64,000 nt of DNA, taken from a virus. The notes under the pieces are model-generated. The model was not told the DNA's origin. It did no database searches and worked only from the letters and a program-made list of their open reading frames with translations. Position numbers and translations under genes: made by a program. Numbering within the stretch: the first letter of the stretch is position 1; each line of letters starts with the position of its first letter. The stretch spans positions 1 to 64,000 of the IMG/VR virus record IMGVR_UViG_3300025645_000055; one strand, written 5' to 3'. Positions 1 to 35,585 of this stretch are shown here, piece after piece.

Positions 1-51
1 ATCAAAGTAAGATACAAGAGTTGAAGGTGACTCTTAGCAAACTTTAAAATT

Positions 52-123
52 GCCCCATCGTCTATGCGGTCTAGGACGCTGCCCTTTCACGGCAGAAACA
101 CGGGTTCGAATCCCGTTGGGGCA
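52..123 (+). tRNA. tRNA-Glu(TTC)
   Basis: Cloverleaf; anticodon arm CTGCC-CT TTC AC-GGCAG; T-loop GGTTCGAATCC. Confidence 0.92.
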
Positions 124-129
124 ACTAAA

Positions 130-200
130 GGTCTATTGGTGTAATGGTAACATACTTGGCTGTCGCCCAGGTGCCGAGGGTTCGATTCCCTCATAGACCG
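130..200 (+). tRNA. tRNA-Asp(GTC)
   Basis: Acceptor GGTCTAT/ATAGACC; anticodon arm CTTGG-CT GTC GC-CCAGG. Confidence 0.9.
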
Positions 201-205
201 CAATT

Positions 206-278
206 GGTGATGTAGCTCAGTTGGTAGAGCAATGGATTGAAGCTCCATGTGTCGTTGGTTCGAACCCAACTATCACCA
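206..278 (+). tRNA. tRNA-Phe(GAA)
   Basis: Acceptor GGTGATG/TATCACC; ATGGA-TT GAA GC-TCCAT. Confidence 0.92.
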
Positions 279-283
279 CAAAA

Positions 284-356
284 GGTACTGTAACTCAGAG
301 GCGAGAGTGCTAGTCTGAAACGCTAGAAGTCGAGATTTCGAAATTCTCCAGTACCA
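284..356 (+). tRNA. tRNA-Phe(GAA)
   Basis: Acceptor GGTACTG/CAGTACC; CTAGT-CT GAA AC-GCTAG. Confidence 0.88.
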
Positions 357-383
357 CAAGTTATATGTAGTAACATATAAAAC

Positions 384-413
384 TTGACTTTTTGAATATA
401 ATCATTATATTTG
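384..413 (+). promoter_or_regulatory. Bacteroidetes sigma-A-type promoter (TTG ... TATATTTG); representative of many copies in the window
   Basis: TTG at 384-386 and TATATTTG at 406-413 match the -33/-7 (TTTG / TAnnTTTG) consensus; the motif recurs before many genes (e.g. 4708, 7517, 9033, 18670, 18837, 18928). Confidence 0.75.
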
Positions 414-432
414 TATAATAAAACATATAATT

Positions 433-978
433 ATGAAAAATAAAAGATTAATTTATTCGTTATCTTGTCCGTTTACAGATGAGATACATTATATCGGAAA
501 AACTAGTGTTGGGATGAGAAGACCACTTCAACACGCAACTAAAAGTCACTCTAAAAAAGTTGGAGAATGGGTTGATGGTTTGAAAGAAATAGGACATTCA
601 CCAAAAGTGGATATATTGGAACAAGTCTCGTTAAATGATGACTTAGATGGTAGAGAGAGATATTGGATACAGTATCGTTTAAAGAAGGGTGATACATTAC
701 TAAATGATTGTTTAGTGACACCACTATTAATCTCTAATGATTTAGATATAATACTTGGTGATGGTGAAGGTATGGAAATGGAACGAATTAGTAGATTCGT
801 TAAGGAGAGAAGAAAAATGGTTGGGATAACACAAGAGGATTTTGCTGATAGAGCGGGTGTTGCGTTGACAGTATTAAGAAAAATAGAACAAGGAAAATCT
901 AATATTAGGGTTGATGGCTTGTTAACCATCTTAAGTATGTTTGGTTGTACTTTAGATGTGAAAAAAAAGGGGGTATAG
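433..978 (+). CDS. GIY-YIG homing endonuclease-like protein with C-terminal XRE HTH domain
   Basis: N-terminal LIYSL...HYIGKT...R (GIY-YIG) and ERYWI; C-terminal ITQEDFADRAGV...RKIEQGK HTH. Confidence 0.8.
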   Translation: MKNKRLIYSLSCPFTDEIHYIGKTSVGMRRPLQHATKSHSKKVGEWVDGLKEIGHSPKVDILEQVSLNDDLDGRERYWIQYRLKKGDTLLNDCLVTPLLISNDLDIILGDGEGMEMERISRFVKERRKMVGITQEDFADRAGVALTVLRKIEQGKSNIRVDGLLTILSMFGCTLDVKKKGV

Positions 979-1041
979 CAAAGATGGTCTATGCGTGTGG
1001 TTGAAGACCATGAGATGTTGGTTCGATACCAACTGCCCTCA
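969..1041 (+). tRNA. tRNA-Phe(GAA)
   Basis: Acceptor GGGGGTA/TGCCCTC; TGTGG-TT GAA GA-CCATG; overlaps the stop codon of the upstream ORF. Confidence 0.85.
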
Positions 1042-1046
1042 CAAAT

Positions 1047-1118
1047 GCTGCTGTCGTCTAATGGTTAGGACGTGTGGTTTTCAGCCACAAAATGAGAGTT
1101 CGATTCTCTTCAGCAGTA
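1047..1118 (+). tRNA. tRNA-Glu(TTC)
   Basis: Acceptor GCTGCTG/CAGCAGT; TGTGG-TT TTC AG-CCACA. Confidence 0.9.
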
Positions 1119-1136
1119 CAATATAAGACTAAATAT

Positions 1137-1209
1137 AGCTATGAGGTCAAATGGTTAAGATATCGCACTGTCACTGCGTATGGAGCGGGTTCAACTCCCG
1201 TCATAGCTG
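1137..1209 (+). tRNA. tRNA-Asp(GTC)
   Basis: Acceptor AGCTATG/CATAGCT; TCGCA-CT GTC AC-TGCGT. Confidence 0.88.
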
Positions 1210-1260
1210 CAAAAGTAAGGAACGTACAACCTTACATAATCCCAGGTTCGAAACTGGGGA

Positions 1261-1375
1261 GTACTTTTGGTGTAGTGGGCACTCTGCCCTTTAGTACCAA
1301 CTATTGGAGTCCATTGAGGGCTTACGTTGGGAAATGGGGCGGTGGTATGTGGGGTTCGAATCCCCCTTAAGTGGC
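1261..1375 (+). ncRNA. tRNA-like RNA with ~40-nt insertion in the anticodon loop
   Basis: D-arm GTG-TAGTGGG-CAC; anticodon stem CTGCC/GGCGG enclosing a CCAAC/GTTGG hairpin; T-arm GGGG-TTCGAAT-CCCC; weak acceptor stem. Confidence 0.55.
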
Positions 1376-1382
1376 AAAGTAT

Positions 1383-1461
1383 GCTGCGTAATGCAAATGG
1401 GTGAGCAACTGGGCTTTCAACCCAGCCTTTTGGAGAGTGGGTTCGATTCCCACACGCAGTA
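1383..1461 (+). tRNA. tRNA-Glu(TTC)
   Basis: Acceptor GCTGCGT/ACGCAGT; CTGGG-CT TTC AA-CCCAG; slightly long variable region. Confidence 0.85.
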
Positions 1462-1528
1462 CAAAATTATAAAATATGAAACGCTTGGGAGCCATAGATT
1501 AGAAAGAATAAACGAGAAGACCAAAAAC

Positions 1529-1978
1529 ATGGGTTCTCGTAAGGATAGAAAACTGAAGAAGTATTCAAATAACTTTAATAAGATGTTTGATTTCTACTTA
1601 AGTGTTTATCGAAGTGGACTTATCACATTTTGTGGTAATACAGTTAACGTAGATTTTGATGTTGATGGTAGTGATGGTAAGTTAGGCTTTAGGGAATATG
1701 ATAATGGTAGGTTTAAACAAAGGACCCCAGTATCAAGACATCCCAACATACTTAAAGGTGTTATCATCGGTAAGAAAGGTTGGGGACTTTGGTTGAATAA
1801 TTGGTCAGAAGGAATTGTTGAGTGGTCATTTACTAAAGAAGAAATACTGGAAGAGTTCAGTAGTAGAAATATAGTAATTCCAGAATCATTGATGAATGAT
1901 TGGGATAATAGATTAGAGACATTAAAACGAAAACGTAATCATAATATGTATATGGATTACTTAAAAAATAAATCGTGA
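1529..1978 (+). CDS. hypothetical protein
   Basis: Likely ATG at 1529 (the upstream part of the 1304 ORF runs through tRNAs). Confidence 0.7.
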   Translation: MGSRKDRKLKKYSNNFNKMFDFYLSVYRSGLITFCGNTVNVDFDVDGSDGKLGFREYDNGRFKQRTPVSRHPNILKGVIIGKKGWGLWLNNWSEGIVEWSFTKEEILEEFSSRNIVIPESLMNDWDNRLETLKRKRNHNMYMDYLKNKS

Positions 1979-2044
1979 TGTGGTGTAATGGTAACATGCT
2001 TGGTTGTCTCCCAGGTGCTGAGGGTTCGATTCCCTTCTTCACGG
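1974..2044 (+). tRNA. tRNA-Asp(GTC)
   Basis: Acceptor CGTGATG/CTTCACG; CTTGG-TT GTC TC-CCAGG. Confidence 0.85.
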
Positions 2045-2049
2045 CAAAT

Positions 2050-2175
2050 AGTCCTAAGAATAAACCGTAAAATCGGTTGGATTTAAGCTATCTTATTCAA
2101 GTGTATCGATGAAGCTTGGGTAATATAAATTAGATGGTCTAATACTAGTTGGGGGTTCGATTCCCTTTAGGACTG
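2050..2175 (+). ncRNA. enlarged tRNA-like RNA (126 nt)
   Basis: Acceptor AGTCCTA/TAGGACT, T-arm GGGGG-TTCGATT-CCCTT, inner stems AACCG/CGGTT, GCTATCT/AGATGGT, TATTCAAG/CTTGGGTA. Confidence 0.6.
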
Positions 2176-2189
2176 CAAAGGTTGTTAAC

Positions 2190-2278
2190 GGTAACGTCTG
2201 GTAACATCTGGTAATAATAAAAAAGCTAAGTCGTTAGTTTATAGGGGTTTAAAAAACGCCTCTGGTAACGTCTGGTAA
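2190..2278 (+). repeat. short 9-bp-period direct repeats TCTGGTAAC (3+2 copies)
   Basis: GGTAACGTCTGGTAACATCTGGTAA at 2190-2214 and TCTGGTAACGTCTGGTAA at 2261-2278. Confidence 0.75.
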
Positions 2279-2294
2279 TTAAAGTAGGAAAAAT

Positions 2295-2504
2295 ATGACA
2301 AAAAACGACATTAAAAAGGCATTATATAAGCAAAAGCCAGAGGCATCTCTTATATTGGTTAGAGGTGGTATTGTACATTATGAGTGTTCATTAGAAGACG
2401 GAACGGTTCTTTATTTTAATGTACCAATGGAAGATATGGGTGACGCTGGATTTTATCCAATAATGGATGCTAAACATCTTCAAAGGTGGTTACCAGAAGA
2501 ATAA
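2295..2504 (+). CDS. hypothetical protein
   Basis: 69-aa ORF between tRNA genes. Confidence 0.7.
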   Translation: MTKNDIKKALYKQKPEASLILVRGGIVHYECSLEDGTVLYFNVPMEDMGDAGFYPIMDAKHLQRWLPEE

Positions 2505-2512
2505 TTAAGATT

Positions 2513-2588
2513 GGGGGCACATGTACCAAGGCCTTGGCGAGTTTGGCTTGCAACCAGACTGTGGTGGGTTCGATTCCCACTGTCTCCA
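2513..2588 (+). tRNA. tRNA-Ala(TGC)
   Basis: G3:U70 in GGGGGCA/TGTCTCC; TTTGG-CT TGC AA-CCAGA. Confidence 0.88.
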
Positions 2589-2646
2589 CAATCTAACCAC
2601 AGCCAAAAGTGGGTAATAAGTACTCATTTGGCTGCGGTTAAAACAT

Positions 2647-2722
2647 AGTCCAATAAGCCCCGTTGGTTGGGGACCTAGACTGTCACTCTATGCAAATAAG
2701 GGTTCGAAACCCTTTTGGACTG
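2647..2722 (+). tRNA. tRNA-Asp(GTC)
   Basis: Acceptor AGTCCAA/TTGGACT; CTAGA-CT GTC AC-TCTAT; atypical D-arm. Confidence 0.8.
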
Positions 2723-2731
2723 CTAAATTTT

Positions 2732-2807
2732 GGGGATGAAGCTCTACTGGCTGAGCACTTGACTTGCACTCAAGAGGTTGTGGGTTCGACTCCCATCATC
2801 TCCACCA
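2732..2807 (+). tRNA. tRNA-Ala(TGC)
   Basis: G3:U70; CTTGA-CT TGC AC-TCAAG; encoded CCA end. Confidence 0.93.
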
Positions 2808-4730: not shown

Positions 4731-5229
4731 AACCATTAAAAAGGTTACTGGTTAGAGAGTCAAAGCGTAAGTTTTGGCTTGAAAGGTTCAATTCCTTTCG
4801 AAACCCTTCACGGGGTTTTGATTTTACCTTTTCAGATTAATATTTTTATTATAATTGGGTGTATAGCTTAGTGGTAGAGCACGGATATTACTTCGTGTGA
4901 TTTATAAGTGTTTACATTTTATCCATATACTGGAGTTACTGGCCTTTTTAAGCCCGTGGCGGAGGTTCGATTCCTTCTGCACCCACTAAAAATTGAAACC
5001 ATAGTTTGAGTTACTATACGAAAAAAAAAAGATACTCTTTCTGATTTATTCAATTTTTTTAACATAAAAAAATTAACCATTGTTAAGGTTACTAAACTAT
5101 ATTTAAATTGTAAAAACTACCTTAACAGATTTCTAATTTTTTTTTTATATAAATATTAACCATTGAGAGGGTTACTCCAACGGTCTGTCCCGAAAGGGCT
5201 TGCCGTTACCAAAGCCACCTTTTCAGATT
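4731..5229 (+). repeat. array of five structured RNA modules (AACCAT-9nt stem-TACT ... stem-GATT)
   Basis: Units at 4731-4838, 4890-4940 (permuted, inside a tRNA), 4997-5046, 5075-5131 and 5158-5229, with compensatory stem changes. Confidence 0.8.
4857..4985 (+). tRNA. tRNA-Lys(TTT)-like gene interrupted by a ~57-nt insertion in the anticodon stem
   Basis: Acceptor GGGTGTA/TGCACCC, D-arm GCTT-AGTGGTA-GAGC, T-arm GGAGG-TTCGATT-CCTTC; CGG^GC...CTTTTTAA-GCCCG with insert 4885-4941. Confidence 0.7.
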
Positions 5230-20497: not shown

Positions 20498-20572
20498 CGA
20501 GAGGTAGCTCAGTTTGCTCAGAGCGTCACCCATTGGGGGTGGAGGTCGTTGGTTCGAATCCAACCCTCTCGA
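20498..20572 (+). tRNA. tRNA with Pro-like body; anticodon ambiguous (loop CATTGGG)
   Basis: C1-G72, A73; TCACC-CATTGGG-GGTGG gives A33 and TTG in standard register, TGG if shifted by one. Confidence 0.7.
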
Positions 20573-20661
20573 CAAAAATTAAAATAAATTAACAAAAAAC
20601 GTAACTTTAATATAGTTACACATATTTAATAGAAAGGGATAAACCCTAAACAATAGAAATT

Positions 20662-20766
20662 ATGATGAATTATACGACAACATATCAAAAGCAGTATCCG
20701 CAAGGGGGGAAACCTAGTGGGCTGGACTTGTCGTGTATTTACTCTAAAGGTAAAACAGGTGTGTAA
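20662..20766 (+). CDS. putative leader peptide (34 aa)
   Basis: MMNYTTTYQKQYPQGGKPSGLDLSCIYSKGKTGV, followed by a terminator. Confidence 0.4.
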   Translation: MMNYTTTYQKQYPQGGKPSGLDLSCIYSKGKTGV

Positions 20767-20793
20767 ATAAATCAATTACATAACTTAAACGGT

Positions 20794-20829
20794 AAGCTCA
20801 GCTATAAAGAAATTTAGTTGGGCTTTTTT
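20794..20829 (+). terminator. rho-independent terminator inside the tRNA cluster
   Basis: AAGCTCAGCTA...TAGTTGGGCTT followed by TTTT. Confidence 0.7.
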
Positions 20830-20845
20830 CATGCCCAAATTTCAA

Positions 20846-20940
20846 CGGGTAATGTGCGAGTGGTTTAAGCAATCGGTCTTGGAAGCCGATGACAATTTCA
20901 AGAAGGTTATTGTCCGTAGGTTCGAATCCTACTTACCCGA
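20846..20940 (+). tRNA. tRNA with TGG (Pro) anticodon and long variable arm
   Basis: CGGGTAA/TTACCCG; TCGGT-CT TGG AA-GCCGA; V-arm GACAAT/ATTGTC. Confidence 0.8.
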
Positions 20941-20948
20941 CTAAACAT

Positions 20949-21021
20949 CGGGATGTATATCAATTGGTAGATTACGTGCTTTGGGAGTACGAGGTTGCTG
21001 GTTCGAGTCCAGTCATCCCGA
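20949..21021 (+). tRNA. tRNA-Pro(TGG)
   Basis: CGGGATG/CATCCCG; CGTGC-TT TGG GA-GTACG. Confidence 0.92.
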
Positions 21022-21031
21022 CAGAATGAAA

Positions 21032-21043
21032 GTTCATTGACAT
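21032..21043 (+). promoter_or_regulatory. boxA-like antitermination element
   Basis: GTTCATTGACAT resembles rRNA-operon boxA sequences. Confidence 0.55.
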
Positions 21044-21117
21044 GTTGGTTAAGTAAAATATAGAAGTCTAGGGAGCCATTGCTCTTAAAACGTCCAACCT
21101 AGAAACTTCTATAATAT

Positions 21118-21190
21118 TGGGATATGGTGTAATTGGTAACACGTCTGTTTTTGGTGCAGAAGAGTATGGGTTCGAGACCCGTTGTCCCAA
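21118..21190 (+). tRNA. tRNA-Gln(TTG)
   Basis: TGGGATA/TGTCCCA; TCTGT-TT TTG GT-GCAGA. Confidence 0.9.
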
Positions 21191-21197
21191 CTAATAT

Positions 21198-21270
21198 TGC
21201 CCTATGGTATAACGGTTAATACGTCTGGTTTTGAACCAGAAGATTGGGGGTTCGAATCCGTCTAGGGTAA
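21198..21270 (+). tRNA. tRNA-Gln(TTG)
   Basis: TGCCCTA/TAGGGTA; TCTGG-TT TTG AA-CCAGA. Confidence 0.88.
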
Positions 21271-21343
21271 CAATAAAGATATTTGGGAGACTGTTATTAA
21301 TTCATAGAACCTATTGCGAGTGGTATCATAGAATTAAAATTAT

Positions 21344-21416
21344 TGGGGTATGGTGTAATGTGTAACATTCAAGATTTTGGTCCTTGAGAGTGTCGGTTCG
21401 AGTCCGTCTACCCCAA
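21344..21416 (+). tRNA. tRNA-Gln(TTG)
   Basis: TGGGGTA/TACCCCA; CAAGA-TT TTG GT-CCTTG. Confidence 0.85.
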
Positions 21417-21417
21417 C

Positions 21418-21563
21418 TATATTGTGTGCGTAACTAAGGTATTTAGGAGTATACATAACAAGTAGTTGACTTAGTACTATCAATGAAAAGTATGTGGAAA
21501 ATGATACAGTTTGAACGGAATCCCATGTTGGGGAGAGATATGAGTGCAAGCCTCATCAATATA
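21418..21563 (+). ncRNA. enlarged tRNA-like element
   Basis: TATATTG/CAATATA closing stem with adjacent T-like arm ATGAG-TGCAAGC-CTCAT. Confidence 0.35.
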
Positions 21564-21567
21564 AATT

Positions 21568-21649
21568 GGGAGTATTGAGCAACTGGTTGCTCAGCAGACT
21601 GTAAATCTGTGGTCTTACGACATTGGGGGTTCGAATCCCTCTACTCCCA
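21568..21649 (+). tRNA. tRNA-Tyr(GTA)
   Basis: GGGAGTA/TACTCCC; GCAGA-CT GTA AA-TCTGT; V-arm. Confidence 0.92.
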
Positions 21650-21654
21650 CAATT

Positions 21655-21735
21655 GGGAACTAAAAGCCATTCGGATATGGCATCGGGACTGTAAATCTCG
21701 TCCTTCGGGGAGTGGTTCGAGTCCACTAGGTCCCA
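21655..21735 (+). tRNA. tRNA-Tyr(GTA), atypical D-arm
   Basis: CGGGA-CT GTA AA-TCTCG; V-arm CC-TTCG-GG; T-arm AGTGG/CCACT. Confidence 0.8.
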
Positions 21736-21808
21736 CAATTGGTCACAGATGAAACGACCAGTCTTCACAGAAAGACTTCCTCATGAGGGGATATAAATAA
21801 AGCTGCAT

Positions 21809-21878
21809 GGGTTGTGAAAGGATACTAGCCGAGGTTGTAACCCTCTAGCTTTGTAGGGTTCGAGTCCCTATCAGCCCA
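21809..21878 (+). tRNA. degenerate tRNA-Tyr(GTA)
   Basis: GGGTTG/CAGCCC; GAGG-TT GTA AC-CCTC; T-arm TAGGG/CCCTA; no clear D-stem. Confidence 0.55.
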
Positions 21879-21883
21879 CAACT

Positions 21884-22016
21884 TGACTATAATTGGTCGG
21901 CAATGTTAATGTAGTGTTTGAGAGCAAACCGTATAATCTCGGCAAACCATCATTAATGAATGAGTTATGTATGTTACATCATAACCTTTTGTGGGGTTCG
22001 ACTCCCCAATGGTCAA
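21884..22016 (+). ncRNA. enlarged tRNA-like RNA (133 nt)
   Basis: TGACTAT/ATGGTCA; T-arm TGGGG-TTCGACT-CCCCA; long arm GTTAATG/CATTAAT, GTTTG/CAAAC; V-arm GTTATG/CATAAC. Confidence 0.6.
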
Positions 22017-22056
22017 CACGCTAGGCTAGTAAGTGTCCAACACGCTAGGCTAATAT

Positions 22057-22128
22057 TCCTTCGTAACTCAGAGGCAGAGTACCGTGCTTTTAACACGGGA
22101 GTCGTGATATCGTAATTCACCGAGGGAA
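22057..22128 (+). tRNA. tRNA-Lys(TTT)
   Basis: TCCTTCG/CGAGGGA; CCGTG-CT TTT AA-CACGG; atypical T-loop. Confidence 0.82.
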
Positions 22129-22207
22129 CAAAAATTAGTAGCATATGCTCGATGAACGACTATGTACATGTAAGTAGGGATACTAGTCATGTTACTAATT
22201 TTAATTT

Positions 22208-22280
22208 GCACCCGAAGCTCAAGTGGACGGGCTTCCCGCTTTTAACGGGAAGGTTACGGGTTCGAGGCCCGTGGGGTGCA
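22208..22280 (+). tRNA. tRNA-Lys(TTT)
   Basis: GCACCC/GGGTGC; TCCCG-CT TTT AA-CGGGA. Confidence 0.88.
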
Positions 22281-22285
22281 CAAAT

Positions 22286-22369
22286 GCGATGTTAGTGTAA
22301 GTCAAAGATTCTAGATTAAACACGCAACCCATAGGGGTTGAGATGGGGGTTCAAGTCCTTTGCATCGCT
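22286..22369 (+). ncRNA. atypical tRNA-like RNA (Gly-like acceptor, enlarged D-loop, 6-nt anticodon loop)
   Basis: GCGATGT/GCATCGC-U73; CAACC-CATAGG-GGTTG. Confidence 0.55.
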
Positions 22370-22374
22370 CAAAT

Positions 22375-22468
22375 GATAGTATAGTGAAATATTCTGTGTA
22401 GACGTACATATAAAAATCACACCTTCTGCTTAGGTTGGAATAATTGGTATGAAATCCAATTACTATCT
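22375..22468 (+). ncRNA. degenerate tRNA-like element
   Basis: GATAGTA/TACTATC; T-like ATTGG-TATGAAAT-CCAAT; enlarged D region. Confidence 0.4.
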
Positions 22469-22473
22469 TAATT

Positions 22474-22544
22474 GCCGATATCGTATAACGGTATTACGTG
22501 CCCTTGGTAGGGGTGAAATCTCAGCTCGTTTCTGAGTATCGGCT
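22474..22544 (+). tRNA. tRNA-Thr(GGT)
   Basis: GCCGATA/TATCGGC; TGCCC-TT GGT AG-GGGTG; atypical T-loop CTCGTTT. Confidence 0.8.
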
Positions 22545-22703
22545 CTAAGTTTATTAATAAGTGGGTAAAACCTTGAGGCATCCCCCTCGGACTATGACGG
22601 CTTATATTTGACGATATAAGTGTTCAAGTTTCTGGTCAAGCAATGCACCAGGTTTGGTGGAATCACCTTACAAAAGCGAGGATTAATATTAATAGACTTA
22701 ACT

Positions 22704-22786
22704 GCGAATATCGTATAATGGAGGGGAAACCCGTATTATAGTGGCCTTCCAAGTCACGGATGAGAGTTCGATTCTCTCTATTCGCT
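22704..22786 (+). tRNA. tRNA-Gly(TCC) with GAAA hairpin in the D-loop
   Basis: GCGAATA/TATTCGC; GTGGC-CT TCC AA-GTCAC; GGG-GAAA-CCC insert. Confidence 0.85.
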
Positions 22787-22794
22787 CAATAATT

Positions 22795-22881
22795 GCCTCT
22801 ATAGCTCAGTTGGTTTGGCGAAAGCCTTAGAGCAGCCCCCTTTTAAGGGGCAGGTCGTAGGTTCGAATCCTACTGGGGGTA
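22795..22881 (+). tRNA. tRNA-Lys(TTT) with GAAA hairpin in the D-loop
   Basis: GCCCC-CT TTT AA-GGGGC; GGC-GAAA-GCC insert. Confidence 0.85.
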
Positions 22882-22940
22882 CTAAGTTAGTTATGACATT
22901 ATGATTTGAGGCTTAATCATCCTCTTTAACTAACTTTATT

Positions 22941-23011
22941 GCGAGATGTAGCTTAATGGCAAAGCATCGGCCTTCCAAGTCGAGGATGCGGTTCGACCCC
23001 GACATTTCGCA
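22941..23011 (+). tRNA. tRNA-Gly(TCC), 8/4-like acceptor/T stems
   Basis: GCGAGATG/CATTTCGC (8 bp); TCGGC-CT TCC AA-GTCGA; short T-stem. Confidence 0.8.
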
Positions 23012-23019
23012 CTAAAAAT

Positions 23020-23102
23020 GCCCCCCTAGTATAATGGAGACGAAAGTCGTATTACCTTGGATTTGTAACCCAAAGATATCAGTTCGATTCTGATGGGGGG
23101 CT
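23020..23102 (+). tRNA. tRNA-Thr(TGT) with GAAA hairpin in the D-loop
   Basis: GCCCCCC/GGGGGGC; TTGGA-TT TGT AA-CCCAA; GAC-GAAA-GTC insert. Confidence 0.85.
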
Positions 23103-23110
23103 CCATACCA

Positions 23111-23195
23111 GCCGATGTCGCATAGTGGTCTATTGCACTTGATTTGTAATCAAGAGAAAGAAATTTCATCGTCAGTTCGAATCTGACCATCGGCT
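23111..23195 (+). tRNA. tRNA-Thr(TGT) with long variable arm
   Basis: GCCGATG/CATCGGC; CTTGA-TT TGT AA-TCAAG; V-arm GAAA-GAAA-TTTC. Confidence 0.85.
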
Positions 23196-23210
23196 CACAT
23201 ATTTATTAGT

Positions 23211-23672
23211 ATGAAAAACTTAATCAACAAAATCTGGGCGTTCATCAAACTAATGCTACCTAATAGCTGGTTTCCAGAAGACGTAATAATTTACGCTATC
23301 GAAGATGATATGAAATCGTGGAAACTTATTGAAGTTCTCATTGTTAGAGAAATAAATAAGTATAGAATCGAAAATGGTCTTAAACCAGTATCTGGTGAGT
23401 TAAACACCAAGCTAGAAACAAAGATAAGAAGCGACTTTATGTCGGATGAAGAAAAACTATCCCACGATGGTTTTGGTGTATCATCAAGAAGACTTAAAGA
23501 TATGGGGTTTAAAAGTGTTGGTGAAATTATAGCCTATGGTTATACAAATGGTGGTGATGTGGTTCATGCTTGGAAAAATAGTCCAAGTCATAATCGTGTA
23601 TTACTTGGAAATTATAAATACCTGGGTGTTAGTAAAACTGATAGATATTATTGTGTAATATTTACCAGATAA
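23211..23672 (+). CDS. CAP (SCP) domain protein
   Basis: INKYR..NGL...LSHDG...GEIIAYG...WKNSPSH..VLL. Confidence 0.9.
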   Translation: MKNLINKIWAFIKLMLPNSWFPEDVIIYAIEDDMKSWKLIEVLIVREINKYRIENGLKPVSGELNTKLETKIRSDFMSDEEKLSHDGFGVSSRRLKDMGFKSVGEIIAYGYTNGGDVVHAWKNSPSHNRVLLGNYKYLGVSKTDRYYCVIFTR

Positions 23673-23674
23673 AT

Positions 23675-23787
23675 GCGAGTGTAGCTCAGTTGGTTAGAGC
23701 GTTATTTAAATCATGCGGGAGTAGCTCAATGGTAGAGCGATACGTTACCAACGTATAGGTTGAGGGTTCGAATCTGATTACTCGCCA
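23675..23787 (+). pseudogene. chimeric tRNA-Gly-like locus: orphan 5-prime half (23675-23701) plus tRNA body with ACC anticodon (23715-23787)
   Basis: ATACG-TT ACC AA-CGTAT; T-stem unpaired; 3-prime TACTCGC pairs better with upstream GCGAGTG. Confidence 0.6.
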
Positions 23788-29729: not shown

Positions 29730-30293
29730 ATGAAACTAACCAAAATTTACAAAAAACTAATCACCGAAGCAAGTAATTCACATTCATACGGATGTGTCAT
29801 GCTTTATTTTGATGCTAAAGAACCATTGTTCAAACAAGCACAAAAAATAATAGAAAAAGATGACCTATACTTAGGTACTGAAGATGACCCAGGTTATGGT
29901 TTAGAAACAGAACCACATGTTACTGTATTATATGGTATTCATGGTGATGTTCCAGATGAAGATGTTGAAGCTAAAATAGATAACTTCACCCAACCAGAAA
30001 TAAACTTGAAGGATATATCAATATTTGATAATGCAGCCAAGGGGTTTGATGTGGTTAAATTTGATATCACCAATAAGGAACTGAATAAGATGAATAAGGA
30101 TGTATCTAAATTACCCCACACAACAGATTACCCAGATTATCATGCACATATTACAATTGCATATGTTAAAGCTGGTAAAGGTGAGAAATATGTTCAAACA
30201 TTATCAGAGGATAAACAAATTAACATTAAACCCAATAAGATAGTCTACAGTAAACCAGATGATTCCAAAAAAACTTATGATTTTAACGGATAA
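29730..30293 (+). CDS. 2H phosphoesterase, Acb1 (T4 gp57B)-like
   Basis: Two HxT motifs: PHVTVLYG and DYPDYHAHITIAY. Confidence 0.8.
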   Translation: MKLTKIYKKLITEASNSHSYGCVMLYFDAKEPLFKQAQKIIEKDDLYLGTEDDPGYGLETEPHVTVLYGIHGDVPDEDVEAKIDNFTQPEINLKDISIFDNAAKGFDVVKFDITNKELNKMNKDVSKLPHTTDYPDYHAHITIAYVKAGKGEKYVQTLSEDKQINIKPNKIVYSKPDDSKKTYDFNG

Positions 30294-30330
30294 ATAACTA
30301 GGTTTGTTGATAGGTTTAATATTTATTAAT

Positions 30331-31089
30331 ATGACAACATTTAATATAATAATTTATTCAACACTACCAACATTCTTATATATATTCTTTATATATTCGG
30401 TTTTACCATATAACACATTTAAGATAAGAAAGTCTTTATTGTACTGGGGTTTTGGTGCACTTTCTATTTTACTTGTCATGGGTTTTTATAAGTTATTCCC
30501 AAATTGGAGTAACCTACCAAGCATTCTTACTAATATGTATACCGATAAACTTGGTTATTTACACATTAGGAACTTCATACAGATAGGTTTATTAGAAGAA
30601 TTGAGTAAGATGATTATGTTCTTATTGTTGGGTGTACTTGGAAGTAGGTTACCAATGTTTAAGGCGTTATCACCAATTGAAACTATGCTTTATTGTGGTT
30701 TTCTAGCACTTGGATTTGCGGGTGTTGAAAACATATACTATGGTCAAAATGTTAATAACCCAGAATTTGTTTTAAAACTTCGTTCAATTACTTCAGTACC
30801 AGCTCATCTTATATTTGGGTTATATATGGGGTATTTTATAGCTAAGGGTAAATTAATTTTGCGTATTAAAAATAAATCATATATCGATTTATTACTAAGT
30901 AACAATAAATTTAGAAAGGTAATATTTGGATTATTTGGGTTGTTTGTTGCCATGGTTCTTCATGGTATTTATAACCTACACATAGCTTTAAACACCTATT
31001 CATTTATAAGTGGAACGTATATATTTTTATTTGCAGCCACATTTGGATTATATTGGTGTTACAACGACATCCGAAAAATAACTTCATAA
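30331..31089 (+). CDS. PrsW-family intramembrane glutamic protease
   Basis: GLLEELSK, GFAGVENI.Y, R.....PAH, LHG.YN. Confidence 0.88.
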   Translation: MTTFNIIIYSTLPTFLYIFFIYSVLPYNTFKIRKSLLYWGFGALSILLVMGFYKLFPNWSNLPSILTNMYTDKLGYLHIRNFIQIGLLEELSKMIMFLLLGVLGSRLPMFKALSPIETMLYCGFLALGFAGVENIYYGQNVNNPEFVLKLRSITSVPAHLIFGLYMGYFIAKGKLILRIKNKSYIDLLLSNNKFRKVIFGLFGLFVAMVLHGIYNLHIALNTYSFISGTYIFLFAATFGLYWCYNDIRKITS

Positions 31090-31588: not shown

Positions 31589-31972
31589 ATGACAATTTTT
31601 GAAAAAATGTGTGCGGATTTCTTAGCGGCTTATAAGGCCAAAGAAATGGAAAAGAAAGATTTTTTAGGTTTCCTTAAATCGGAAATTCTTAGAGAGGGTA
31701 AACCCACAGATGATGCTTATGTGATTCTTAAACTTAAATCTATGTTTAATAAATTAGAGGATTCTGATTCAATCACTGAAATGGAGTTTAATGTGTTTCA
31801 TTCATATATTCCAAAACAAATGAGTGAAGAAGAATTAACTGTTATTATTGGTTTAGTGGTTCAAGAATCGTTAAACGCAAATATGGGTACAATCATGAAA
31901 CATTTGATTAAAACATACCCAGGTCAATATGATGGTAAAATGGCATCAATAATTGCTAAAAAATTATTATAA
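31589..31972 (+). CDS. GatB/YqeY domain protein
   Basis: AYKAKE...L..LKSEI...YIPKQMSEEEL...MG.IMK...DGK. Confidence 0.85.
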   Translation: MTIFEKMCADFLAAYKAKEMEKKDFLGFLKSEILREGKPTDDAYVILKLKSMFNKLEDSDSITEMEFNVFHSYIPKQMSEEELTVIIGLVVQESLNANMGTIMKHLIKTYPGQYDGKMASIIAKKLL

Positions 31973-31974
31973 AA

Positions 31975-32170
31975 AATAAGTCAGAGAACGTATCGCACTA
32001 CGGTGAGAAACCTCCAGACATCACAGTTTAAGGTAGGAGACGAAAGTCGATTGCACTACCGAGGATGCAACTCAAACAGACCGAGGGGATGAACTGCCCG
32101 TTGAGGTCGGGTTAGAGGCAAATAGGTAAATGATACGATAAAGCAGAATTTGGGGTAAGCTCAACTTATT
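31975..32170 (+). ncRNA. rnpB: minimal RNase P RNA
   Basis: P1 AATAAGT/ACTTATT; P2 CGTATC/GATACG; P4 ACC(T)CCAGA/TTTGGGGT with bulged U; GAGAAA, TGCAAC, AGGTAAATG and CAGAA conserved blocks. Confidence 0.82.
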
Positions 32171-32188
32171 ATTAAAAAAAACAATTAA

Positions 32189-32755
32189 ATGAATAGAGAA
32201 AAAATCTTTGATAACTTAGATAACTTACTTGCTAATAAGCATGGTAAGAATTTCATAAACCATCTAGTGATGGCTTATGTACCAGTGAATAAAGTTGATA
32301 AGGTTTTTATCAGACCACAGAAGGTTAAATTTAAATGTGCAATCATTGATGAACAATTAATATCTGTTAATGAAATACTTAAGGGTGTTACAGAAGATGC
32401 GTTTAAAGATGATGTATTCAAGTATCTTCACACAATGTTTGATACTAAAAGTGAACCAGAAACACCAATTAAGAAATTAATGGGTGATAAGAAGCTTGGT
32501 ATCCAAGGTACTAAAACCGATACCTTTATGTCTATTGATGGTTATTTCCTTTTCTATGATTGGCTTTCAACTAAAATTATGTTGGGTGATAAACATATCA
32601 CCTGGTTAATGAGAAAGGCTAAGGAAACCCTTACTGATAGCACTGGTAATAGGGTTAAAAAAGAGGTGGAGAAAAAAGAGGTTAGAGCAACCTTTGCCCT
32701 TGGTGACCTACCAGCACTACAAGCCCTTAAGGATAAATTAGATGGGAAAAAATAA
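32189..32755 (+). CDS. hypothetical protein
   Basis: 188-aa ORF. Confidence 0.75.
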   Translation: MNREKIFDNLDNLLANKHGKNFINHLVMAYVPVNKVDKVFIRPQKVKFKCAIIDEQLISVNEILKGVTEDAFKDDVFKYLHTMFDTKSEPETPIKKLMGDKKLGIQGTKTDTFMSIDGYFLFYDWLSTKIMLGDKHITWLMRKAKETLTDSTGNRVKKEVEKKEVRATFALGDLPALQALKDKLDGKK

Positions 32756-32938
32756 ACATGTTAAGAGTGGGTGGAATAAGGGTAACTATTGTGGTTGCCA
32801 CTATTGTACTGGTACTACTTATGAAGATTGGTTGGAGTTAAAACATAATCTAAAACCTAAACATAAAAATACTCTATAAATGTTTGCTTATTAAATATAT
32901 TATACTTATCTTTGTCCTATAATTGTAAAACAATATAT

Positions 32939-33922
32939 ATGGATATTAAGAAAACAGTAAACCCAGAAGATTATAGTGTTGGTGTGATAGTTGCACGGTT
33001 TCAAACCCACGAATTACATGACCCACACAAAGAGATGATTGATATCGTCTGTGATAATCATAAAAAGGTACTTATTTTCCTTGGAATATCTACAATTCCA
33101 AATACCAAAAGAAACCCATTAGATTTTGCCACTAGAATGGTGATGATACAAGAATATGCACCAAAAGCGGTGATTATACCAATTAAGGATAATCGTTCTA
33201 ATTTAGTATGGAGTAAATATTTAGATTCACAAATATCATTAATATTTGGTGATGCTAATGTTAAACCATTACTATATGGTAGTAGAGATTCTTTTATCCC
33301 ATTCTATGAGGGTAGATTTGATACTGCTGAATTAACAAGCGATGTTATGATTAGTGGTACTGAAATAAGAAATAACGTTTCCAAAGAAATCCTAATGTCT
33401 CAAGACTTCCGAGCTGGGGTTATACACGCAAATTACGCACAAAGAGCAGTATCATATCCAACGGTTGATGTTGTTGCATATAATGATAAAGGTCAAATCT
33501 TAATGGCTAAGAAACCAAACGAAGACAAGTATAGATTTGTTGGTGGATTTGTTGACACAAGTGATAATAGACTTGAACATTCTGCTAGACGAGAGTTTAT
33601 GGAAGAAACTGGTGGTAGTGGTGAAATAGGTGAATTAAAATATGTTTGTTCACAAGCCATTGATGATTGGAGATATAAGAAAGAAGACTCTGGTATTATG
33701 ACCACACTCTTTATTGGTTATTTCAGATGGGGTTATGTAAGACCCTCAGATGATATTAGTGAACTTAAATGGATGGACTTCTCTAGATTCTTAGATATGG
33801 GTTATATTAAACATAATATGATGCCAGAACACGAAACCTTAATGATTACCCTTGTTAATAAAATTAAAGATGGTACATTAGGTATTAAAACACTTGAAGA
33901 ACAAAATACAGAAAAACTATAA
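32939..33922 (+). CDS. bifunctional NMN adenylyltransferase / Nudix ADP-ribose pyrophosphatase (NadM-Nudix)
   Basis: VARFQ..LH..H, RNPL.F..R, SGTEIR; Nudix box GGFVD......SARREFMEETG. Confidence 0.9.
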   Translation: MDIKKTVNPEDYSVGVIVARFQTHELHDPHKEMIDIVCDNHKKVLIFLGISTIPNTKRNPLDFATRMVMIQEYAPKAVIIPIKDNRSNLVWSKYLDSQISLIFGDANVKPLLYGSRDSFIPFYEGRFDTAELTSDVMISGTEIRNNVSKEILMSQDFRAGVIHANYAQRAVSYPTVDVVAYNDKGQILMAKKPNEDKYRFVGGFVDTSDNRLEHSARREFMEETGGSGEIGELKYVCSQAIDDWRYKKEDSGIMTTLFIGYFRWGYVRPSDDISELKWMDFSRFLDMGYIKHNMMPEHETLMITLVNKIKDGTLGIKTLEEQNTEKL

Positions 33923-33923
33923 T

Positions 33924-35585
33924 ATGGAAACATTAGAACTAAATAAACAAGGGGTTAAGACAGTTACCTTACCCAAGCGTAAGATAGCAGACGTACCTAG
34001 ACTATTATGGGCAGATGCCTATACTGCTGGGTCAAATAAGTTTCAATCGGCTAAAGCTAAACAAGAATCTGTTTACTATGTCACATTCCGTAGACAACTA
34101 TCTACTGTTAATCCACTCTTATATAATGTGGGTGATGATAGAATTATCTTCGGTGGTCTACAACGACTATTAGAGAAGATTTTCTATGAACCAGTAACAC
34201 ATAAAGAGATTGATGATGCTAAGGAATTTCTTTCTACATTCAAAGCCACAACATTAGGTTATGCAGAATATGAGTTTCCAGAGGAAATGTGGAGAACAGT
34301 TGTAGACGAATATAACGGTAGACCACCAATCCTTATTAAAGGGATGCCAGAGGGTTCTGTTGTATATCCTAATGAACCAGTTGTACAAGTTACATCAATG
34401 GTTGATGGTATGGGTGAATTAGCAGCTTGGTTTGAATCTACCATCCTTAAGGTATGGGCAGTTTCAGAACGTATCACACAGAACGAACATTGGATTACAA
34501 AACTTAAAGGTATGATTCATGGAATTGAACCAGATTTAGATGATGAATCTGTTCACTTTCAAGCATCACTTATGCTTACCGATTTCGGTGACAGAGGTGG
34601 TATAACACCAGAAGAATCAGAAGAATTAGGTATGGCTCACTTATATACGTTCCCAGGTACAGACACATGTTCTGGGGCATATCAAGCTTGGTATAATGCT
34701 AATAAAACACCAGTGGGTAGTAGTGTTAATGCACTTGCCCATAGAAACGTACAAGCATATAAATTAGAAAATGATGTTTATGAAGCGATTTATAACTCAT
34801 GTAAAGATAACGAAATCATTTCGATGGTTGCCGATTGTTACGATTTCTACTATGCAGTAAGAGAATACTTATTACCACTAGCACTCCGTAGTATCAAAGA
34901 AGAAAATGGAAAGGTTGTAGTGGGTAGACCAGACTCTGGAAATGCAGTAGAACAAGTCCTATGGCTTTGTAGACTAGCTAAGAGATATGGTTTATATACC
35001 ACAAAGGTAATTGATGGTGTTGAGTGGTACTTCGGTACAACACTTAAGTTCATCGAGGGTGATGGAATGAAATATGATACAATGTGGGAAATCATTCAAG
35101 CATTAGAAAAAGAAGGATTTGCACCACACGGTTGGGGATTATTTGGCGTAGGTGGTGGACTAAGAAATGGTATCAAAAGAGATAACCTTTCTGCTAAATA
35201 CGCACTATGTTCAATGGGTTACGACCACGTTGGTGTTACAAAGTTCTCTGAAACACTAGGTAAAACTACTTTACCTGGACCTTTCAAAGTTTTAAGAAGT
35301 GCCGAAGCATTACATAATAAAGAAACCATAGTGTTTGATACTGAAAAAGGAGAAGATGCAATGGTGGTTTACTATGATGGTTCTAATATATACAAACCAT
35401 TTGGTGAGGGTCAAGATGATGACTTCTTAGTTATTAGAGCAAGGATTAGAGAACAGTGGGATAGTATGCCACTTAATCTAACATCTGATACTAATCATAA
35501 TTATCCAGCTAGTAAAGCAATACTTGCAAAACGTATTGAATTACTTAAGGAATATGCACCTAATAAACACGCTAAAAACTACTAA
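33924..35585 (+). CDS. nicotinamide phosphoribosyltransferase (NAMPT/NadV)
   Basis: DAY, GLQ..L, P..IKG.PEGS, DFG.RG, GTD, S.V.D.YD, RPDSG, GDG, G.GG.L. Confidence 0.88.
   Translation: METLELNKQGVKTVTLPKRKIADVPRLLWADAYTAGSNKFQSAKAKQESVYYVTFRRQLSTVNPLLYNVGDDRIIFGGLQRLLEKIFYEPVTHKEIDDAKEFLSTFKATTLGYAEYEFPEEMWRTVVDEYNGRPPILIKGMPEGSVVYPNEPVVQVTSMVDGMGELAAWFESTILKVWAVSERITQNEHWITKLKGMIHGIEPDLDDESVHFQASLMLTDFGDRGGITPEESEELGMAHLYTFPGTDTCSGAYQAWYNANKTPVGSSVNALAHRNVQAYKLENDVYEAIYNSCKDNEIISMVADCYDFYYAVREYLLPLALRSIKEENGKVVVGRPDSGNAVEQVLWLCRLAKRYGLYTTKVIDGVEWYFGTTLKFIEGDGMKYDTMWEIIQALEKEGFAPHGWGLFGVGGGLRNGIKRDNLSAKYALCSMGYDHVGVTKFSETLGKTTLPGPFKVLRSAEALHNKETIVFDTEKGEDAMVVYYDGSNIYKPFGEGQDDDFLVIRARIREQWDSMPLNLTSDTNHNYPASKAILAKRIELLKEYAPNKHAKNY

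What the first reader, a model, noticed from the sequence alone, without database searches (positions are those of the whole stretch)
31975..32170. Phage-encoded, highly reduced RNase P RNA with a sequence-altered P4 helix
Seen: ~196 nt with P1, P2 (CGTATC/GATACG), a tiny P3, and P4 ACC-U-CCAGA/TTTGGGGT, which keeps the pairing and bulged U but differs from the usual AGUCCGGG/CCCGGCU. The specificity domain is largely missing. Established: typical bacterial RNase P RNAs are about 350-400 nt. Inference: a minimal ribozyme that may process the atypical tRNA-like RNAs here, whose T and D loops deviate from the canonical elbow.
Basis: partly seen in the sequence, partly recalled or inferred. Interest (0 to 1): 0.78.

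Follow-up and report, generated by a model that had tools for sequence, protein, structure and literature searches.

The report
Minimal RNase P RNA of huge phages
A large freshwater phage carries a gene for a half-sized version of RNase P RNA, the ribozyme that trims transfer RNAs; it belongs to an undescribed family found in many huge phages, a few of which also encode the enzyme's protein partner.

Summary
They also form P5, the P6 pseudoknot and P15-P16-P17 with a conserved GGT loop. Only 41 nt stand where the specificity domain should be.

Rfam finds nothing in the window itself. I collected 52 distinct relatives from huge-phage and metagenome contigs. Across them 91.4% of pair cells are standard pairs, against 32-40% when the partners are slid. 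P4 and P6 were not in the model that made the alignment; they show compensatory changes at 6 of 8 and 5 of 5 pairs. Three relatives hit Rfam RNase P models end to end (E 3.6e-11 to 2.9e-6), all below the gathering scores.

Three RNA-bearing huge phages also encode RnpA with its RNR motif. Nine of 52 copies sit flush against a tRNA gene.

Most likely this is the catalytic RNA of a phage-borne, bacterial-type RNase P that matures the phage's many tRNAs without reading the tRNA elbow. Activity is untested. The link to atypical tRNAs is weak: 25 of 27 tRNAs here have ordinary T loops. I found no published description.

The parts
31975..32170 (+). Whole RNA gene (196 nt), from the first to the last base of P1
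   Evidence: R1 match 31970-32172 at 197.5 bits (the window was in the training set); no ORF of 40 aa or more
31975..31986 (+). P1 5' strand (31975-31981) and inner 3-bp extension (31984-31986); partners are 32164-32170 and 32160-32162
   Evidence: P1 96.2% and the extension 98.5% of cells paired, and all 10 pairs have changes on both sides
31989..31994 (+). P2 5' strand; partner 32132-32137
   Evidence: 98.7% paired, 4 of 6 pairs with changes on both sides
31996..32005 (+). P3, the minimal form: 3 bp and a 4-nt loop (longer in relatives)
   Evidence: outer 3 pairs 99.3% paired
32005..32018 (+). CR-I-like GAGRAA (32005-32010) running into the P4 5' strand (32010-32018), with bulged T at 32013
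   Evidence: Bulged T in 50 of 50 sequences with a letter; G-A-G-R-A-A nearly invariant; this stretch aligns to the conserved consensus of Rfam RNaseP_arch in relatives
32019..32022 (+). P5 5' strand; partner 32064-32067
   Evidence: 96-99% paired, all 4 pairs with changes on both sides
32025..32028 (+). P6 pseudoknot 5' strand; partner 32092-32095 in the P17 loop
   Evidence: 5 of 5 family pairs have changes on both sides, 93.5% paired; P6 was not part of the CM
32023..32063 (+). Vestigial specificity domain (41 nt): stem 32032-32036 with 32056-32060 enclosing hairpin 32039-32048 and conserved GGAG / CGNT / AC / GAG residues
   Evidence: family range 38-126 nt; the Rfam alignments replace 117 model positions with 31-38 nt
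32068..32117 (+). J5/15, P15 (32071-73 with 32115-17), P16 (32079-82 with 32105-08), P17 (32085-87 with 32097-99), and J16/15 GGGTTA (32109-32114) holding the conserved GGT
   Evidence: RNAalifold on an unfitted MAFFT alignment of 43 segments predicts all three helices, 8 of 9 pairs with changes on both sides; GGT columns G 51, G 47, T 49 of 51
32120..32137 (+). CR-IV-like AATAG..ATGA stretch running into the P2 3' strand; there is no P18 between P15 and this stretch
   Evidence: aligns to the conserved J15/2 consensus of RNaseP_arch in relatives. Its conservation is partly forced by the search pattern
32143..32156 (+). CR-V-like GCAGAA (32143-32148) and the P4 3' strand (32149-32156)
   Evidence: P4 96.3% paired, 6 of 8 pairs with changes on both sides
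32160..32170 (+). 3' strands of the inner extension and of P1

Best explanation
Window 31975-32170 encodes the RNA subunit of a phage-borne RNase P of bacterial (type A-like) ancestry.

What it keeps and what it lacks:
- It keeps the whole catalytic domain: P1-P5, the P4 and P6 pseudoknots, P15-P17 with a GGT loop, and CR-I, CR-IV and CR-V.
- It has lost P18.
- It has lost almost all of the specificity domain.

Inferred mechanism:
1. The RNA folds around the P4 core.
2. It binds an RnpA protein, either the phage's own (where one is encoded) or the host's.
3. It cuts the 5' leaders and short inter-tRNA spacers of the phage's tRNA arrays.
4. It recognises the acceptor end rather than the T/D-loop elbow.

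In some relatives the gene lies inside a tRNA array, so cleavage at the next tRNA's 5' end would also make the ribozyme's own 3' end.

Shown: the structure, its homology to RNase P RNA, its spread among huge phages, and its co-occurrence with RnpA and tRNA arrays. Inferred: catalysis, substrates and protein partner.
For: 1. Structure with covariation.
- 56 pairs, 91.4% of 2719 cells paired, against 32-40% when partners are slid; 47 pairs have changes on both sides; 0 of 500 shuffles reach the observed values (52 distinct sequences).
- The earlier test on 15 distinct sequences gave 93.3%.
- P4 and P6 were not in the CM, so the alignment was not fitted to them. P4: 96.3% paired, 6 of 8 pairs with changes on both sides. 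P6: 93.5% paired, 5 of 5.
- P15-P17 were predicted independently by RNAalifold.

2. Rfam RNase P models align three relatives end to end.
- L047: RNaseP_bact_a, 45.1 bits, E 3.6e-11.
- L053: RNaseP_arch, 35.8 bits, E 5e-7.
- L002: RNaseP_arch, 32.4 bits, E 2.9e-6.
- L047 and L053 were not used to build R1, yet R1 finds them at E 1e-25 to 1e-33.

3. Hallmark residues that the search patterns did not select for.
- The bulged T of P4 is present in 50 of 50 sequences.
- GAGRAA is nearly invariant.
- GGT sits on the 3' side of the P15/P16 loop in 47-51 of 51. Genuine type A RNAs fetched here have GGT in the same place.

4. RnpA (PF00825).
- It scores above the curated cut-off in 3 of 5 RNA-bearing phage records, confirmed at E 6e-14 to 5e-12.
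- The RNR motif is visible.
- None of these 5 records holds a full-size rnpB.
- The mini RNA is single-copy in 5 of 5 records.

5. Link to tRNAs.
- The window holds 27 tRNA genes, several only 4-8 nt apart.
- 9 of 52 distinct family members lie 0-10 nt upstream of a same-strand tRNA, and 24 of 52 have a tRNA within 3 kb.

6. A weak hint of expression: a metatranscriptome run holds a 166-nt contig, 31989-32154, with no differences, wholly inside the gene.
Against: - The window itself has no Rfam hit, either at gathering score or at E up to 10. L001, L006, L011 and L117 have none either.
- All Rfam hits of relatives are far below the gathering scores (24-45 bits against 84-100).
- The phage model R1 does not find four genuine type A rnpB genes, even with filters off.
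- No cleavage data exist.
- Without the specificity domain the RNA may be weak or inactive on its own.
- RnpA was not found in the window's own 73-kb record, which is rated about 20% complete.
- RnpA was not found in 7 of 10 other RNA-bearing records. Among these are G007 (97% complete) and G011 and G012 (both rated 100%).
- Only 1 of 27 tRNA genes here encodes CCA, so what the conserved GGT loop pairs with is unclear.
- In the window the nearest tRNA is 8.2 kb away.
- The RNA-library contig could come from carried-over DNA.
- CR-IV and CR-V conservation is partly circular, because the relatives were fished with a pattern from that stretch.
Confidence: 0.78

Rival explanations
1. The RNA is an RNase P-derived ribozyme that no longer works mainly on ordinary pre-tRNAs. 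With the elbow-reading domain gone, it may cut other substrates: phage polycistronic mRNAs, tRNA-like elements with deviant elbows, or host RNAs.
For: - The specificity domain is reduced to 38-126 nt across the family.
- 2 of 27 tRNAs here have deviant T loops, and further tRNA-like Rfam hits are not called by ARAGORN.
- In the window the gene sits among protein genes, 8.2 kb from the nearest tRNA.
Against: - 25 of 27 tRNAs are ordinary.
- 9 of 52 copies are flush with tRNA genes.
- The acceptor-end elements (the GGT loop and J5/15) are conserved.
- Archaeal type T RNAs, which lack the same domain, are reported as catalytically active (passage in PMC7191817).
Confidence: 0.12
2. The RNA is a catalytically dead RNase P look-alike. 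It acts as a decoy that soaks up host RnpA or pre-tRNAs and so shuts down host tRNA maturation. [quoted passage not shown]
For: - There is a precedent: a viral RNase P-like RNA without activity (passages in PMC3001073).
- Most RNA-bearing phage records show no RnpA of their own.
Against: - Residues with no obvious use in a decoy are conserved: the bulged T, GAGRAA, CARAA and the GGT loop.
- The largest phages add their own RnpA.
- These phages carry many tRNA genes that themselves need 5' processing.
Confidence: 0.07
3. The RNA is unrelated to RNase P: another structured RNA, or a chance resemblance in a GC-rich intergenic patch.
For: No Rfam hit in the window; single-sequence folding is unremarkable (z = -1.24).
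Against: - Two pseudoknots and eight nested helices lie in the RNase P order, and all covary.
- Three relatives hit RNase P models end to end, and no other family competes at comparable E-values.
- RnpA co-occurs.
Confidence: 0.03

Closest known systems
Bacterial type A RNase P RNA (Rfam RF00010)
   Same: - The order of P1-P2-P3-CR-I-P4-P5 is the same.
- J5/15-P15-P16-P17 is present, with GGT on the 3' side of the internal loop.
- The P6 pseudoknot joins J5/7 to the P17 loop.
- CR-IV precedes the P2 3' strand, and CR-V precedes the P4 3' strand.
- These points come from comparison with four genuine RNAs fetched here.
- L047 aligns to the model over positions 1-367.
- The partner protein RnpA is present in three phages.
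   Different: - The length is about 181-282 nt (window: 196 nt), against 337-417 nt for the four genuine RNAs.
- The specificity domain (P7-P14 with CR-II and CR-III) is replaced by a stub of median about 44 nt.
- There is no P18.
- The P4 sequence is variable.
- Scores fall far below the gathering threshold.
- The gene is carried by phages, not cells. A pattern scan of 185,579 species' genomes found only one copy, on a 425-kb contig of the same length and score as a viral record.
Archaeal type T (minimal) RNase P RNA of Thermoproteaceae (Pyrobaculum)
   Same: It is a natural RNase P RNA that keeps the catalytic domain and lacks nearly all of the specificity domain (P11, J11/12, J12/13, P12, CR-II and CR-III), and it is reported as still active (passage in PMC7191817). 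It is of similar small size (recalled: about 200 nt).
   Different: - Type T is archaeal, works with several archaeal proteins and is reported as confined to one archaeal lineage.
- The phage RNA has bacterial-type features (the GGT loop, an RnpA partner).
- The loss looks independent; this is an inference.
- The original paper (PMC3012483) is not held.
Strongly reduced mitochondrial RNase P RNAs of yeasts (recalled, not checked here)
   Same: They show extreme natural reduction of a bacterial-type RNase P RNA around P1 and P4.
   Different: As I recall them, they lose much of the catalytic domain as well and depend on a large protein. The phage RNAs keep a complete catalytic domain.
Camelpox/orthopoxvirus RNase P-like RNA
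   Same: [quoted passage not shown]
   Different: That RNA showed no pre-tRNA processing in vitro, and its likeness is loose. The phage family keeps the conserved core motifs and covarying pseudoknots, and in some genomes it comes with RnpA.

Membership tests
RNase P RNA (clan CL00002) | Long-range P4 helix with a bulged U, flanked by CR-I and CR-V | tested here: met
   Window pairs. Family: 96.3% paired, 6 of 8 pairs with changes on both sides, bulged T in 50 of 50
RNase P RNA (clan CL00002) | Catalytic-domain helices P1, P2, P3, P5 and P15 in the canonical order | tested here: met
   end-to-end alignments of relatives to Rfam models
RNase P RNA (clan CL00002) | Score at or above Rfam's gathering threshold for any RNase P model | tested here: not met
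   Window: no hit even at E up to 10. Relatives: 24-45 bits against 84-100. 3 of 8 sequences tested (window, L001, L002, L006, L011, L047, L053, L117) hit at E below 1e-5
RNase P RNA (clan CL00002) | Specificity domain with CR-II and CR-III (the T-loop reading module) | tested here: not met
   41 nt between the P5 strands in the window, 38-126 nt in the family; the Rfam alignments skip 117 model positions
RNase P RNA (clan CL00002) | Site-specific 5' cleavage of pre-tRNA | not testable with these tools
   Needs a bench assay
Bacterial type A RNase P RNA | P6 pseudoknot between J5/7 and the P17 loop | tested here: met
   Window 32025-28 with 32092-95; 5 of 5 pairs with changes on both sides
Bacterial type A RNase P RNA | GGU in the P15/P16 internal loop (its role as 3'-CCA binding site is recalled) | tested here: met
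   G 51, G 47, T 49 of 51; same position in genuine type A L148. Function not tested; only 1 of 27 tRNA genes here encodes CCA
Bacterial type A RNase P RNA | P18 between P15 and J18/2 | tested here: not met
   Two nt (32118-32119) separate the P15 3' strand from the CR-IV stretch in the window
Bacterial type A RNase P RNA | Works with the RnpA protein (PF00825) | tested here: inconclusive
   An RnpA gene is present in 3 of 10 other RNA-bearing records and absent from the window's own 20%-complete record. Binding was not tested
Archaeal type T RNase P RNA | Catalytic domain only, in Thermoproteaceae archaea | tested here: not met
   The architecture is analogous, but the carrier is a phage and the features are bacterial-type. 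No match to the type T model survived in any cmscan (within a clan only the best match is shown)

The most novel reading that the evidence does not exclude
Huge phages carry their own complete RNase P. Its RNA is the smallest natural bacterial-type RNase P ribozyme, a catalytic domain with a roughly 40-nt stub in place of the specificity domain. In the largest genomes it is paired with a phage RnpA. This enzyme would make maturation of the phage's dozens of tRNAs independent of the host and of tRNA-elbow recognition. Where the gene lies inside a tRNA array, the enzyme would cut itself out of the transcript.
Probability: 0.6. Interest if true: 0.9.

Novelty: new variant of a known kind. Interest (0 to 1): 0.85.

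Why it matters
As far as my searches show, RNase P has been treated as a purely cellular and organellar enzyme, and phages with tRNA genes are assumed to rely on the host's.

A phage-borne family would matter in three ways:
1. It adds tRNA 5' maturation to the translation functions that huge phages bring along.
2. It offers dozens of natural, covarying examples of a bacterial-type catalytic domain working without the specificity domain. That bears on a long-standing question in the ribozyme field: how much of RNase P RNA is needed, and how substrates are chosen without the elbow contact.
3. It offers compact ribozymes of about 190-230 nt, with a matching small protein, for structural and engineering work.

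It also shows that current covariance models miss this class, so annotation pipelines are blind to it.

Tried and rejected
- Rfam on the window: no RNase P hit. The only matches were two chance-level ones, SAM-II at E 2.3 and sR22 at E 7.7.
- Rfam at gathering score on eight bacterial loci from the genome-wide pattern scan: nothing. Those pattern matches were chance, and the search was wasted.
- L137 (R1 20.3 bits): read by eye, it is a repeat-like stretch, not an RNase P RNA.
- Reverse search of genuine type A rnpB loci with the phage model R1: no hit with default filters, and only noise (best 8.9 bits) with filters off.
Only 4 of the 113 new loci held a family member.
P15/P16 therefore score only 62-65% paired. 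I tested them instead on a separate MAFFT alignment of the segment.
- Looking for more phage RnpA genes:
  - The search for related loci with one protein and then with a 3-protein alignment returned only two near-identical loci.
  - A back-translated RNR-motif pattern gave 5 contigs.
  - The four new or fragmentary records held no mini RNA. They are rated 3-89% complete, so this says nothing.
- PF01743 (CCA-adding enzyme) in the window's own record: none. The record is a 20% fragment.
- Promoter and terminator scan: 2 promoter-like sites against 5.2 expected, and no terminator. The transcript ends are unknown.
- RNA-run cover outside 31989-32154, and the absence of cover elsewhere, carry no weight because these are contigs.
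- The type T paper PMC3012483 is not held.
- Supplements of papers were not consulted. Gene tables in the supplements of the huge-phage papers might list RnpA.
- Not in print, as far as I could search. Six searches and a seventh gave no paper on a phage RNase P. Term look-ups in the main texts of PMC7162821, PMC13282480 and PMC7824862 found no occurrence of RNase P, and PMC7191817 has no occurrence of 'phage', 'virus' or 'viral'.

Full report
THE OBSERVATION

The stretch 31973-32188 is a gap between two + strand ORFs, 31589-31972 and 32189-32755. The upstream ORF is a YqeY-like protein. No ORF of 40 aa or more overlaps the gap on either strand. The gap is richer in G+C (about 0.40-0.44) than its flanks (about 0.29-0.32).

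- P1: 31975-81 with 32164-70.
- P2: 31989-94 with 32132-37.
- P3: 3 bp with a 4-nt loop, 31996-32005.
- P4: 8 bp, 32010-18 with 32149-56, T32013 bulged.

- a 3-bp inner extension of P1;
- P5 (32019-22 with 32064-67);
- a 4-bp P6 pseudoknot (32025-28 with 32092-95);
- P15, P16 and P17 (32071-32117), with GGGTTA on the 3' side of the P15/P16 loop;
- an AATAG..ATGA stretch running into the 3' strand of P2;
- GCAGAA directly before the 3' strand of P4.

Only 41 nt separate the two P5 strands. There is no P18.

IS IT MORE THAN CHANCE?

On its own the sequence does not stand out. The minimum-free-energy fold has z = -1.24. Rfam finds no RNase P in the window at gathering score or at E up to 10. The evidence comes from relatives.
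- blastn against phage records found partial matches in two uncultured huge phages, LR745206 (634,780 bp) and LR756502 (642,428 bp).
- Read side by side, their P4 strands differ from the window's by compensatory changes, while the bulged T and the flanking motifs stay.
- Motif patterns taken from the conserved 3' part then retrieved more copies from viral contigs and metagenome contigs.
- A covariance model, R1, built from 11 sequences sorted true copies from chance pattern matches. In the last search, 52 of 70 metagenome loci held a copy.
- Together with the earlier loci this gives 69 matches and 52 distinct sequences.
- Full-length matches span 188-289 nt including 7 flanking model positions.
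- The carriers include contigs of 163-483 kb. The window's own record is a 73-kb virus fragment rated about 20% complete.
- A scan of one genome per species for 185,579 species found a single copy. It lies on a 425,361-bp contig filed as an archaeal MAG. Its length and R1 score equal those of an IMG/VR viral record, so it is most likely a misbinned phage.

COVARIATION

On the alignment of 52 distinct sequences, the full structure of 56 pairs has 91.4% of 2719 cells as standard pairs. When the 3' partners are slid by 1-3 columns the figure is 32-40%. Forty-seven pairs show changes on both sides, and 0 of 500 column shuffles reach any observed measure. The first, smaller set of 15 distinct sequences gave 93.3%.

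The alignment was fitted to the nested helices by the model, which favours them. P4 and P6 are pseudoknots that the model does not contain, so their counts are free of that bias:
- P4: 96.3% paired, 6 of 8 pairs with changes on both sides.
- P6: 93.5% paired, 5 of 5 pairs with changes on both sides.

P15 and P16 score poorly in that alignment (62-65%). On a separate, unfitted MAFFT alignment of that segment from 43 sequences, RNAalifold predicts P15, P16 and P17 by itself, with 8 of 9 pairs showing changes on both sides.

IS IT RNase P RNA?

Four lines of evidence say yes.

1. Rfam's own models align three relatives from end to end, with the specificity domain skipped.
- L047: RNaseP_bact_a, 45.1 bits, E 3.6e-11.
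- L053: RNaseP_arch, 35.8 bits, E 5e-7.
- L002: RNaseP_arch, 32.4 bits, E 2.9e-6.
- The printed alignments put GAGGAA..TC, the J5/15 GCAA, the AATG stretch and ACAGAA on the conserved consensus letters. They replace 117 model positions with 31-38 nt.
- L047 and L053 were not used to build R1, yet R1 finds them.

2. Columns that my search patterns did not select are nearly invariant: the bulged T (50 of 50), G-A-G-R-A-A before P4, and GGT in the J16/15 loop (G 51, G 47, T 49 of 51).

3. I fetched four genuine type A RNAs of 337-417 nt and read them. The order of elements is the same, including GGT on the 3' side of the P15/P16 loop. That this loop binds the tRNA 3'-CCA is recalled knowledge, not tested here.

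4. Three of five RNA-bearing phage records encode an RnpA protein above Pfam's cut-off: LR756502, LR745206 and a 483-kb contig. Pfam confirmed them at E 6e-14 to 5e-12. The RNR motif is visible. None of the five records has a full-size rnpB, and each has exactly one mini RNA.

Results that count against this reading:
- All Rfam scores are well below the gathering thresholds.
- Five of the eight sequences tested gave no RNase P hit: the window, L001, L006, L011 and L117.
- R1 does not recognise genuine rnpB genes.
- RnpA is missing from the window's fragment and from 7 of 10 other records. Among these are G007 (97% complete) and G011 and G012 (both rated 100%).
- One of the seven, a 313-kb contig, comes from the same sample series as a 242-kb contig that does carry RnpA. 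The two may be pieces of one genome.

HOW IT MOST LIKELY WORKS

The window holds 27 tRNA genes, some separated by only 4-8 nt. Such arrays need an endonuclease to free each 5' end.

Nine of 52 distinct family members lie 0-10 nt upstream of a same-strand tRNA gene, and 24 of 52 have a tRNA within 3 kb. In L047, L053 and L117 the RNA sits between tRNAs. In those genomes the ribozyme would be transcribed with its substrates, and cleavage at the next tRNA would form its own 3' end. This is an inference.

In the window the gene lies among protein genes, 8.2 kb from the nearest tRNA. No terminator was found, and there is only a weak promoter-like site.

I infer that the RNA, with RnpA from the phage or the host, cuts pre-tRNAs by recognising the acceptor end alone. 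Archaeal type T RNAs lack the same domain and are reported as active (PMC7191817, passage seen).

Only two of 27 tRNAs have unusual T loops (22057-22129 and 22474-22545).

A point that no explanation here covers: the GGT loop is conserved, yet only one of 27 tRNA genes encodes CCA, while all 27 have C after the discriminator base.

EXPRESSION

The stretch occurs in freshwater metagenomes of several studies. One metatranscriptome run holds a 166-nt contig, 31989-32154, identical to the window and wholly inside the gene. Another RNA run holds contigs in neighbouring ORFs. This is a weak hint only, because DNA carry-over is not excluded and contigs show no transcript ends.

COMPARISON WITH WHAT IS KNOWN, AND NOVELTY

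The RNA works like, and descends from, bacterial type A RNase P RNA. It fails two of that family's features, the specificity domain and P18, and it fails Rfam's thresholds. I therefore file it as a new variant, not a plain member.

The nearest analogue in architecture is the archaeal type T RNA, which is reported only from Thermoproteaceae. The only viral precedent I found is the camelpox RNase P-like RNA, which was inactive in vitro.

Seven literature searches and term look-ups in the main texts of four papers turned up no description of a phage RNase P RNA or phage RnpA. Supplements were closed and subscription journals are not covered, so an earlier mention cannot be excluded.

VERDICT

I put the identification as an RNase P RNA homologue at about 0.95, and a role as the catalytic subunit for phage tRNA 5' maturation at 0.78. 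It is a new variant of a known kind and of high interest.

Noticed in passing
L153 1435-1803, L154 1465-1812, L155 1462-1806 (LR756502, LR745206 and a 483-kb IMG/VR contig): Huge phages encode RnpA, the RNase P protein (PF00825, 46-52 bits), with the RNR motif. The gene lies far from the RNA gene: about 76 kb against 502 kb in LR745206. I found no mention of this in the papers searched.
   Followed up: partly
window 51-2807 and 20498-23786: There are 27 tRNA genes with many repeated anticodons (Asp x4, Gln x4, Phe x3, Glu x3, Gly x3). Several are only 4-8 nt apart. All 27 have C after the discriminator base, but only one (2732-2807) encodes CCA.
   Followed up: partly
window 22057-22129 and 22474-22545: Two tRNA genes (Lys-ttt, Thr-ggt) have T loops that depart from the usual TTCRA pattern. 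Rfam also reports tRNA-like matches that ARAGORN does not call: 4857-4985 (129 nt), 22823-22881 and 23020-23102.
   Followed up: no
window 29730-30293, 30304-31089, 32912-33922, 33894-35585: The neighbours of the RNA gene are an Acb1-like / 2H phosphoesterase (31.7 bits), a PrsW-family protease, a NUDIX protein with a weak cytidylyltransferase-like N-terminus, and a NAMPT-like phosphoribosyltransferase. The last two suggest an NAD salvage pair.
   Followed up: no
L218 44-234 and 854-1020: A 1043-nt metagenome contig carries two copies of the mini RNase P RNA on one strand. Both score low (57 and 72 bits) and appear partly deleted.
   Followed up: no
L147 (JBBACR010000001.1, 425,361 bp): A contig filed as a Pacearchaeota MAG has the same length and the same RNA score as IMG/VR viral contig 3300035208_004923 (L011). 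It is most likely a huge phage binned as an archaeon.
   Followed up: partly
L047 929-1353: A phage contig carrying the mini RNase P RNA inside a long tRNA array also encodes a tmRNA (81.5 bits).
   Followed up: no
window 32037-32055 and the equivalent columns in relatives: Inside the vestigial specificity domain, a few residues (GGAG, CGNT, AC, and a closing GAG) are nearly invariant, while the enclosed hairpin varies from 3 bp to inserts of about 80 nt. Their role is unexplained.
   Followed up: partly
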